This document shows positions 8,244 through 8,448 of a DNA stretch of 24,000 nt, piece after piece. Made by a program: the position numbers and the translations under genes. The notes under the pieces are model-generated. The model worked only from the letters and a program-made list of their open reading frames with translations, had not been told where the DNA came from and made no database searches. Position 1 is the stretch's first letter. Every line of letters starts with the position of its first letter. The stretch is taken from contig NZ_JACHCP010000012.1 of NCBI RefSeq assembly GCF_014207185.1, positions 86,158 through 110,157 of the forward strand. Reading direction: 5' to 3'. The stretch is from Rhodanobacter sp. A1T4. GTDB lineage: Bacteria; Pseudomonadota; Gammaproteobacteria; Xanthomonadales; Rhodanobacteraceae.

Positions 8244-8448
8244 CACATACTTTGGTTGTCAAAAGGCGCGCTGCGGCCTGCGCCACTGCAACCTAAGTGA
8301 TTGTTTCAATTAGACGCACACCTACTTTGGTTGTCGTTGGACAGCAAAGTATGTGCACGGCAAACCCAAACTACACACACTTTGGTTTCCATAAGTGCTC
8401 ACACATGGGTGTCATGCCCACTGGTTGGGCATGACAGCAATGTATGTG
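8244..8448. repeat. Cluster of a ~16-nt motif (CACATACTTTGGTTGTC and variants) in both orientations
   Basis: Plus-orientation copies:
- 8244-8260 CACATACTTTGGTTGTC
- 8317-8335 CACACCTACTTTGGTTGTC
- 8374-8390 CACACACTTTGGTTTCC
- 8400-8413 CACACATGGGTGTC (degenerate)

Inverted copies:
- 8340-8355 GACAGCAAAGTATGTG
- 8433-8448 GACAGCAATGTATGTG

Copies 8317-8335 and 8340-8355 face each other across 4 nt. Confidence 0.8.
8410..8436. repeat. Perfect 11-bp inverted repeat (TGTCATGCCCA ctggt TGGGCATGACA)
   Basis: Read directly from the sequence. The stem extends imperfectly outward to about 8400-8448, where it merges with two copies of the repeated motif. Confidence 0.85.

What the first reader, a model, noticed from the sequence alone, without database searches (positions are those of the whole stretch)
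8244..8448. Dense two-orientation cluster of a ~16-nt motif, nested around a perfect hairpin, at the island edge
Six copies or variants of CACATACTTTGGTTGTC occur within 205 nt, four forward and two inverted.

The outermost pair is 8244-8260 and 8433-8448. These behave like imperfect terminal inverted repeats, agreeing at roughly 14 of 17 positions once one gap is allowed. Inner copies form a head-to-head pair 4 nt apart (8317-8355). There is also an 11-bp perfect hairpin at 8410-8436.

This is not a CRISPR array and it does not code for protein. Possible explanations:
- a MITE-like element or two tandem small palindromic elements;
- leftover multi-site transposase or recombinase binding ends marking the island boundary. 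The GACA-N-CAAAGT core is loosely reminiscent of Tn7-type TnsB sites, but the mixed orientation argues against a simple Tn7 end;
- an operator array for the STAND gene, whose start codon is 156-360 nt away on the minus strand.

I found no clear target-site duplication; the flanks are ..TTCAG and CCTAG...
Basis: seen in the sequence. Interest (0 to 1): 0.6.

Follow-up and report, generated by a model that had tools for sequence, protein, structure and literature searches.

The report
Abutting ends of two Tn7-like transposons
The dense two-orientation motif cluster is where two Tn7-like transposons sit end to end: the repeats are the sites their transposase binds, so this is an ordinary, though clearly resolved, example of a known kind of mobile element.

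Summary
Six copies of an 18-19-nt repeat and a perfect 11-bp inverted repeat lie at 8243-8469. High-scoring copies occur almost nowhere else in the 5.08-Mb genome except 22 kb upstream, at the other edge of the low-GC island.

The island (E1) is a 22.3-kb Tn7-like transposon (C12:72241-94577, ending at window 8420). It encodes a fused TnsA-TnsB transposase, TnsC and TniQ/TnsD.
- 8243-8420 is its extended end, the one far from the attachment site. It holds five repeats, one of them flipped, and an IHF-like site.
- The "hairpin" is E1's terminus (…TGTCATGCCCA), a 5-nt spacer, then the terminus (TGGGCATGACA…) of a second element, E2.
- E2 (8426-21879) is older and has no tns genes.

Both elements sit in one attachment site, 18-20 nt from a conserved sequence upstream of a core PadR gene. 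Empty sites, single insertions and tandem arrays occur in other Rhodanobacter genomes and in Dyella.

Transposase sites in both orientations are a published trait of TnsAB-fusion Tn7-like elements (PMC9881144). The MITE and STAND-operator readings are rejected; the "transposase-binding ends" reading is right.

This is a new member of a known kind. Open points are 4-bp rather than 5-bp flanking repeats and a frameshifted tnsAB.

The parts
1..8420 (.). The part of transposon E1 inside the window. The whole element is C12:72241-94577 (22,337 bp). Its tnsAB-tnsC-tniQ genes lie upstream of the window at C12:76642-81505. The cargo here is DUF4238, DUF2971, an orphan gene and a 954-aa STAND NTPase.
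   Evidence: Low GC, 0.48-0.56 against about 0.60. Terminal inverted repeats TGGGCATGACACC. tns genes.
8243..8261 (+). Distal (fifth) transposase-binding repeat of the E1 extended end: GCACATACTTTGGTTGTCA.
   Evidence: 27.7 bits on the weight matrix. Conserved at the same place in most of the aligned full-length distal ends; absent from G000 E2 and G077 E2.
8294..8306 (-). IHF-consensus-like 13-mer AAACAATCACTTA, one mismatch to WATCARNNNNTTR.
   Evidence: A match with at most one mismatch sits at the identical position (-127 from the terminus) and on the same strand in 7 of 8 full distal ends. Consensus taken from PMC10201428. Binding is inferred, not shown.
8318..8336 (+). Fourth repeat, one half of the head-to-head pair.
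   Evidence: 20.9 bits. The CACnnACTTTG half-site is conserved in relatives.
8339..8356 (-). Third repeat, flipped orientation, the other half of the head-to-head pair.
   Evidence: 24.2 bits. A flipped copy lies at the equivalent place in 8 of the 10 distal ends examined, the exceptions being the decayed G000 E2 and the partial G077 E2.
8373..8390 (+). Second repeat, same orientation as the terminal one.
   Evidence: 21.2 bits. Conserved.
8397..8420 (+). Terminal repeat GCTCACACATGGGTGTCA plus the terminal hexamer TGCCCA. This is the E1 terminus on the side away from the attachment site.
   Evidence: It is the inverted repeat of the E1 proximal terminus TGGGCATGACACC at L011:6042. ...ATGCCCA is invariant in 9 of 10 distal ends examined; G010:C16 lacks the hexamer.
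8421..8425 (.). 5-nt spacer CTGGT between the two termini. CTGG repeats the 4 nt that flank the E1 proximal terminus.
   Evidence: Left flank ...TTCTGG|TGGGCA, right flank CCCA|CTGG.
8426..8469 (.). Decayed compact end of the older element E2, on its attachment-site side: TGGGCA, then a repeat at 8432-8449 (-), then a degenerate flipped repeat at 8455-8469 (+).
   Evidence: Matches the compact ends next to PadR in G010, G003, G009, G011 and others, and homology stops at 8470.
8426..21879 (.). Element E2 (13,454 bp). It has no tns genes. Cargo: TetR and an FAD mono-oxygenase, AraC, a hydrolase, DUF4142, an aldo-keto reductase and a cusCBA-like RND pump. It ends ...GTGTCATGCCCA at 21879 with decayed subterminal repeats.
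   Evidence: The right flank of empty sites in relatives resumes at window about 21880, at CTGCTAAGTTG. Gene content.
21880..22882 (+). Core right flank of the attachment site: the conserved CTGCTAAGTTG sequence and a cyclophilin-type PPIase gene at 21902-22882.
   Evidence: 72.3-84.1% identical to the DNA directly next to PadR in empty-site genomes.

Best explanation
The cluster is the junction of two Tn7-like transposons inserted in tandem into one attachment site.

**What the parts are.**
- Positions 8243-8420 are the extended, 'left-type' end of E1, a 22.3-kb element of the TnsA-TnsB-fusion branch of the Tn7 family.
- This end holds five 18-19-nt repeats (consensus GYACAWACWTTGGT(T)GTCA). 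Two direct copies lie at the terminus, then one flipped copy forming a head-to-head pair with a fourth, then a distal copy about 160 nt in. An IHF-like site lies between the distal copy and the pair.
- Positions 8426-8469 are the decayed compact end of an older element, E2.
- The 'perfect hairpin' is simply the two inverted termini (…TGTCATGCCCA / TGGGCATGACA…) 5 nt apart.

**Inferred mechanism.**
- TnsAB protomers bind the repeats. IHF bends the extended end so that the distal protomers join the complex.
- The terminal repeat places the DDE site at the …CCCA-3' end.
- TniQ/TnsD recognises the conserved sequence upstream of PadR and, through TnsC, directs insertion 18-20 nt away in one orientation.
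- A later insertion at the same spot pushed E2 outward and produced the abutting ends.

**Shown versus inferred.** Shown here: the gene content, the repeats at both ends, the inverted termini, empty and occupied sites, and conservation of the architecture. Inferred: binding of TnsAB and IHF, and activity. In this genome tnsAB carries a frameshift, so E1 is probably immobile now.
For: 1. **Transposition genes.** The island encodes:
   - a protein that matches the PmcCAST TnsAB fusion, PDB 9bw1_M, at E=2.4e-17. The intact G010 orthologue matches at 2.6e-19 over both the TnsA-like and the DDE parts (identity of 9BW1);
   - a TnsC (PDB 8fcu, E=3.2e-7);
   - a TniQ-domain protein (Pfam 32.5 bits, above the 27-bit cut-off).
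2. **Repeat distribution.** Repeats scoring 20 bits or more occur only at the two edges of the low-GC island, plus one isolated hit on C3. The termini TGGGCATGACACC are inverted repeats.
3. **Attachment site.**
   - The PadR flank is core: 79 of 95 other Rhodanobacter genomes have it.
   - Ten loci show empty sites, and about 15 carry an element starting 16-20 nt from ...GAAGTCATGC, always in the same orientation.
   - Dyella has the same arrangement.
   - In G000 the right flank of the empty site resumes at window 21880.
4. **Conserved architecture.** The distal-end layout (repeat, IHF-like site, head-to-head pair, two terminal repeats) is conserved in independent elements while the spacers diverge.
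5. **Recurring junctions.** The same end-to-end junction, with 1-5 nt between termini, recurs in G077, G059, G061 and Dyella.
6. **Flanking repeats.** 4-bp direct repeats flank the element nearest PadR in G000 (CTGG), Dyella (GTGG) and G059 (CGGT).
[quoted passage not shown] IHF sites occur in left ends (PMC10201428). Defence genes are typical Tn7-like cargo (PMC8649781).
Against: - No biochemical evidence here that TnsAB or IHF binds these sequences.
- The flanking repeat is 4 bp, not the 5 bp typical of Tn7. It is imperfect in G077 and absent for G009 and for E2.
- The termini read TGG…CCA rather than TGT…ACA.
- Flipped repeats also occur in the compact end, which the cited paper does not describe.
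- The tns operon reads toward the compact end, opposite to Tn7.
- tnsAB is frameshifted in this genome, and Pfam barely detects its DDE domain (rve E=0.02).
Confidence: 0.88

Rival explanations
1. The 205-nt unit (8244-8448) is itself a small non-autonomous element (MITE-like), with 8244-8260 and 8433-8448 as its terminal inverted repeats.
For: The two outer copies are inverted relative to each other and similar: 12-nt arms, 92% complementary (I5).
Against: - The unit is single-copy in the genome.
- Its left part (8241-8421) and right part (8415-8470) occur separately in relatives, in different contexts.
- There is no duplication at its supposed edges.
- The outer copies are accounted for as the distal site of E1 and the terminal site of E2.
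Confidence: 0.02
2. The repeats are an operator array through which a regulator controls the divergently placed STAND NTPase gene (start at 8088).
For: The array lies 155-360 nt upstream of the gene's start. No other promoter-like element was found.
Against: - The same array, in the same architecture, is conserved in elements whose adjacent cargo is unrelated.
- tblastn with the STAND protein finds no homologue in any related locus.
- The repeats also occur at the opposite end of the element, far from the STAND gene.
- A secondary effect of transposase binding on outward or inward transcription is not excluded.
Confidence: 0.05
3. The repeats are arm-type or core sites of a tyrosine or serine recombinase (attL/attR of an integrative island), or iterons of a replication origin.
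For: Multi-copy, mixed-orientation short repeats at an island edge are also seen in att sites and in origins.
Against: - No integrase, recombinase or Rep gene was found among the island's ORFs.
- The island's two edges are inverted, not direct, repeats.
- A complete tnsAB-tnsC-tniQ module is present.
Confidence: 0.03

Closest known systems
Tn7-like transposons with fused TnsAB (McCAST type I-D and PmcCAST type I-B2 CASTs and their non-CRISPR relatives such as Tn5469; Hsieh & Peters, PMC9881144; PDB 9BW1)
   Same: - Fused TnsA-TnsB transposase, TnsC, and a TniQ/TnsD selector.
- Asymmetric ends with several transposase-binding repeats, in both orientations in the extended (left) end.
- Termini that need not be TGT/ACA.
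- Site- and orientation-specific insertion next to a conserved sequence.
   Different: - The host is Rhodanobacter/Dyella (Gammaproteobacteria), not cyanobacteria.
- There is no CRISPR module and only one TniQ-type gene.
- The attachment site lies upstream of a PadR regulator gene instead of downstream of a tRNA gene.
- Flipped repeats are also present in the compact end.
- Flanking repeats appear to be 4 bp.
- Only about 25% identity to PmcCAST TnsAB.
Tn7 (TnsABCDE, attTn7 downstream of glmS)
   Same: - A left end with dispersed TnsB sites and a compact right end next to the attachment site.
- TnsD-type homing at a fixed distance from a conserved sequence.
- Terminal sequence resemblance: Tn7 TGTGGGCGGACA against (G)TGGGCATGACA here. 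The Tn7 sequence is recalled from memory, so this is a lead only.
   Different: - In Tn7 all TnsB sites point one way, TnsA and TnsB are separate proteins, and the duplication is 5 bp.
- In Tn7 the tns genes start at the right end and read inward. Here the operon reads toward the compact end and lies 4.3 kb from it.
Type I-F CAST (VchCAST/Tn6677) left end with an IHF site (PMC10201428)
   Same: A conserved IHF-consensus sequence lies between transposase-binding sites of the extended end.
   Different: - Here the IHF-like site lies between the distal site and the head-to-head pair, not between the first two sites.
- Binding is untested.
- The G000 copy has one mismatch to the consensus.

Membership tests
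Tn7-like transposon, TnsAB-fusion clade | DDE (RNase-H-fold) TnsB-type transposase | tested here: met
   The G010 orthologue (57% identical) aligns to PmcCAST TnsAB residues 444-828, E=2.6e-19. In G000 the protein is split by a frameshift. Pfam rve is only E=0.02.
Tn7-like transposon, TnsAB-fusion clade | TnsA-type endonuclease domain fused to the N-terminus of TnsB | tested here: met
   G000 residues 50-284 match 9bw1_M residues 20-260. The motif T-x-D-F-x-V ... E-x-K is aligned with PmcCAST TPDLFV...EECK. It is a single 797-aa ORF in G010.
Tn7-like transposon, TnsAB-fusion clade | TnsC AAA+ regulator encoded next to the transposase | tested here: met
   The 331-aa protein matches PmcCAST TnsC (PDB 8fcu_Q), E=3.2e-7, over residues 9-277.
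Tn7-like transposon, TnsAB-fusion clade | TniQ/TnsD target selector | tested here: met
   Pfam TniQ PF06527, 32.5 bits against a 27-bit cut-off. The C-terminal 300 aa have no assigned domain.
Tn7-like transposon, TnsAB-fusion clade | [quoted passage not shown] | tested here: met
   The compact end has 3 repeats in about 75 bp. The extended end has 5 repeats in about 180 bp, one of them flipped. The criterion comes from PMC9881144. Binding itself was not tested.
Tn7-like transposon, TnsAB-fusion clade | Site- and orientation-specific insertion at an attachment site | tested here: met
   About 15 occupied loci have the compact end 16-20 nt from ...GAAGTCATGC upstream of PadR, always in the same orientation. 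Ten loci are empty sites.
Tn7-like transposon, TnsAB-fusion clade | 5-bp target-site duplication | tested here: inconclusive
   Exact 4-bp direct repeats in 3 of 5 testable cases (CTGG, GTGG, CGGT), 3 of 4 bases in one, none in G009 and E2. A 5-bp repeat fits only if the terminal T is counted, and it fails in Dyella.
Tn7-like transposon, TnsAB-fusion clade | 5'-TGT ... ACA-3' termini | tested here: not met
   The termini read TGGGCA ... TGCCCA. According to PMC9881144, almost 20% of TnsAB elements lack TGT/ACA, so this is not a strict criterion.
Tn7-like transposon, TnsAB-fusion clade | Demonstrated transposition | not testable with these tools
   Only comparative evidence is available: empty versus occupied sites and tandem arrays.
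MITE / small palindromic repeat element | Many copies per genome, each with terminal inverted repeats and a flanking duplication | tested here: not met
   The 17-mer and the 205-nt unit are single-locus in the genome. There is no duplication at 8243/8449.

The most novel reading that the evidence does not exclude
This may be a previously undescribed proteobacterial lineage of TnsAB-fusion Tn7-like transposons. Its single TniQ/TnsD would home to the promoter/operator region of a PadR regulator gene. The lineage builds tandem arrays there: two elements here and at least four in Dyella subtropica. These arrays act as a hotspot that collects defence and resistance cargo. The lineage also differs mechanically from studied relatives, with flipped sites in both ends and an apparent 4-bp duplication.
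Probability: 0.5. Interest if true: 0.4.

Novelty: new member of a known kind. Interest (0 to 1): 0.3.

Why it matters
- **It explains the neighbourhood.** The defence island (E1) and the adjacent TetR/mono-oxygenase and cus-type pump block (E2) are cargo of two Tn7-like elements stacked in one attachment site. They are not native genes, which changes how the other findings in this window should be read.
- **It adds to the TnsAB-fusion group.** It provides a non-cyanobacterial, non-CRISPR member with a new protein-guided attachment site and a well-resolved end architecture. That is useful for annotating transposon boundaries and, modestly, for people who engineer Tn7-type insertion systems.
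- **It shows a gap in current profiles.** Pfam's transposase models miss this transposase.

Tried and rejected
- **MITE reading:** rejected. The unit is single-copy and its halves separate in relatives.
- **STAND operator:** rejected as the primary function. The array is conserved without the STAND gene.
- **tRNA/tmRNA-linked integrase island:** no tRNA genes and no recombinase.
- **Structured RNA:** Rfam gives only chance-level hits, E=0.47 and 0.81.
- **Promoter scan of 8050-8800:** nothing found.
- **5-bp duplication:** tried with several definitions of the termini. Only a 4-bp repeat is consistent.
- **Distal end of the G010:C3 element:** not found within 30 kb upstream of tnsAB.
- **Literature search for 'Tn7-like' + 'PadR' + 'attachment site':** no paper found.
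- **Fuzzy-regex genome scan:** the first attempt timed out and was replaced by a weight-matrix scan.

Full report
**Observation.**
- Forward copies of the repeat lie at 8243-8261, 8318-8336, 8373-8390 and 8397-8414.
- Reverse copies lie at 8339-8356 and 8432-8449.
- The head-to-head pair spans 8318-8356.
- The perfect 11-bp inverted repeat is TGTCATGCCCA (8410-8420), CTGGT, TGGGCATGACA (8426-8436).
- A seventh, degenerate copy lies at 8455-8469.

The cluster is far beyond chance. The 17-mer with up to 3 mismatches occurs 3 times in the window against 0.05 expected. The window is G000:C12:86158-110157. A weight matrix built from the copies scores 20 bits or more at only two places in the 5.08-Mb genome, plus one isolated hit on C3. 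One place is this cluster (C12:94400-94606). The other is C12:72247-72313, 22 kb upstream.

**The island is a Tn7-like transposon.** C12:72,000-94,600 has 0.48-0.56 GC against about 0.60 for the genome. Upstream of the window it carries four co-oriented genes.
- Two ORFs of 580 and 274 aa are halves of one gene split by a -1 frameshift beside a C6 run. In Rhodanobacter sp. MP7CTX1 (G010) the same gene is one 797-aa ORF, about 57-58% identical.
- This protein matches only one PDB sequence, 9bw1_M, at E=2.4e-17 (G000) and 2.6e-19 (G010).
  - The match covers an N-terminal TnsA-like nuclease part, where the motif D...ExK aligns, and the C-terminal DDE part.
  - 9BW1 is the TnsABC(D) transpososome of the Peltigera membranacea cyanobiont type I-B CAST, whose TnsA and TnsB are fused.
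- The next gene matches that system's TnsC (8fcu, E=3.2e-7).
- The last gene has a TniQ domain above Pfam's cut-off.
- The rest of the island is typical Tn7-like cargo (PMC8649781): an OLD-family ATPase-nuclease, two STAND NTPases, DUF4238 and DUF2971.
- No recombinase or tRNA gene is present.

**The two ends.** Element E1 spans C12:72241-94577, 22,337 bp.
- At the upstream edge the sequence reads ...TTCTGG|TGGGCATGACACCAATGTTTGTAC, followed by two flipped repeats within about 75 bp.
- At the window edge it reads ...GCTCACACATGGGTGTCATGCCCA|CTGG.
- The termini TGGGCATGACACC are therefore inverted repeats.

**Attachment site, empty sites and the second element.**
- The DNA left of E1 is a PadR regulator gene with a sensor gene. 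It is core: 79 of 95 other genomes of the genus have it.
- Homology among genomes stops at ...CATGGGCCTGAAGTCATGC, about 75 nt upstream of the PadR start.
- In ten genomes this sequence continues, after about 23 nt, into a conserved CTGCTAAGTTG and a secreted cyclophilin-type isomerase gene. These are empty sites.
- In about fifteen others, TGGGCATGA... starts 16-20 nt after the anchor, always in the same orientation. The same holds in Dyella subtropica.
- In G000 the right flank of the empty site is found at window 21880 onward, at 72.3-84.1% identity. It is preceded by ...GTGTCATGCCCA at 21870-21879.

Hence 8426-21879 is a second element, E2 (13,454 bp). Its compact end is the decayed TGGGCATGACAGCAATGTATGTGC...TGTACAAACAATTGG at 8426-8469, and its distal repeats are decayed too. 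It has no tns genes. It carries TetR and an FAD mono-oxygenase, AraC, a hydrolase, DUF4142, an aldo-keto reductase and a cusCBA-like pump.

**Conservation of the architecture.**
- The window's 8241-8421 part and its 8415-8470 part occur separately in relatives.
- I aligned nine distal ends: G000 E1 and E2, G021, G077 E1 and E2, G059, G061, G009 and G010:C16. Dyella was examined separately.
- The shared order of blocks is: distal repeat; CTAAGC..TTG.T block; head-to-head pair CACnnACTTTG-N13-AGCAAAGTAnGTnCA; repeat; terminal repeat plus ATGCCCA.
- The spacers between these blocks differ freely.
- The second block matches the IHF consensus WATCARNNNNTTR (from PMC10201428) with at most one mismatch. 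It does so at exactly the same position and strand in 7 of 8 full ends. In the window it is 8294-8306.
- Compact ends are always an outward terminal repeat followed by one or two flipped repeats.
- Abutting termini like the one in the window recur in G077, G059, G061 and Dyella, 1-5 nt apart. Dyella has at least four elements in tandem.

[quoted passage not shown] They also state that almost 20% of such elements lack TGT/ACA termini. The window's extended end fits this description.

**Rejected readings.**
- MITE: the unit is single-copy. Its supposed terminal repeats belong to two different elements, and there is no duplication at its edges.
- STAND operator: the array is conserved next to unrelated cargo, with no STAND homologue in any related locus. 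It is mirrored at the far end of the element.
- Structured RNA or promoter: nothing found.

**Mechanism, inferred.**
- TnsAB protomers occupy the repeats. IHF bending brings the distal protomer(s) into the paired-end complex.
- The terminal repeat positions cleavage at ...CCCA-3'.
- TniQ/TnsD binds the conserved PadR-upstream sequence and recruits TnsC and TnsAB, giving insertion 18-20 nt away with the compact end next to PadR.
- A later arrival inserts at the same spot, pushing the resident outward and leaving end-to-end junctions.

Four-base direct repeats flank the PadR-nearest element in G000 (CTGG), Dyella (GTGG) and G059 (CGGT, with its ends on two contigs). G077 has 3 of 4 bases, and G009 and E2 have none.

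**Open points.**
- The duplication looks like 4 bp, not 5 bp.
- Flipped repeats also occur in the compact end.
- The tns operon reads toward the compact end, 4.3 kb from it, in G000, G010 and Dyella. This is opposite to Tn7.
- The G000 tnsAB is frameshifted and there is no second copy in the genome, so E1 is probably immobile.
- Binding by TnsAB and IHF is untested.

**Distribution and novelty.**
- Fusion-sized TnsAB homologues (810-880 aa, 22-32% identity) occur in 9 of 87 genera sampled in the order.
- Close relatives (55-57% identity) were seen only in Rhodanobacter and Dyella.
- Many Rhodanobacter genomes carry ends without tns genes.
- No paper in the library links Tn7-like elements with a PadR attachment site.

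This is a new member of a known kind, with a new attachment site. The finding is explained rather than mysterious, so interest is modest.

Noticed in passing
L011:13540-13680 (C12:~79,800-79,830), upstream of the window: tnsAB of E1 is split into 580-aa and 274-aa ORFs by a -1 frameshift beside a C6 run. Orthologues in G010 and Dyella subtropica are intact single ORFs. No second tnsAB exists in the genome, so E1 is probably immobile unless this is an assembly error.
   Followed up: partly
window 8426-21879: The TetR and FAD mono-oxygenase pair, AraC, a hydrolase, DUF4142, an aldo-keto reductase and a cusCBA-like pump are all cargo of a decayed, tns-less Tn7-like element (E2). They are not native chromosome, which bears on other findings in this window.
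   Followed up: partly
G112 (Dyella subtropica) C2:67,980-105,720; loci L071-L078: At least four elements of this family lie in tandem at the same PadR attachment site. The end-to-end junctions have 1, 4 and about 5 nt between termini.
   Followed up: partly
L011:5945-6023 (C12:72,144-72,222): A highly conserved non-coding block lies upstream of PadR (…ACTAGTRCATGGGCCTGAAGTCATGC). It is preceded by an imperfect palindrome (TAGTGT..ACACTA in relatives). It is probably the PadR promoter/operator and, by position, the sequence read by the transposon's TniQ/TnsD.
   Followed up: no
L014:9754-9925 (G010:C16): An orphan extended end lacks the terminal TGCCCA hexamer and is not next to PadR. Meanwhile the tns-bearing element on G010:C3 has no extended end within 30 kb. 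This suggests a rearrangement or a second insertion site.
   Followed up: no
G000 C3:32399 (minus strand): A single isolated 23-bit match to the repeat (GCACTCACTTTGGTGTCA) lies outside any cluster. It is probably chance.
   Followed up: no
L011:6606-10086 (C12:72,805-76,285): Between the compact end and tniQ lie an OLD-family ATPase with a TOPRIM nuclease domain (636 aa) and a STAND/AAA_22 NTPase (468 aa). These are further defence-type cargo.
   Followed up: no
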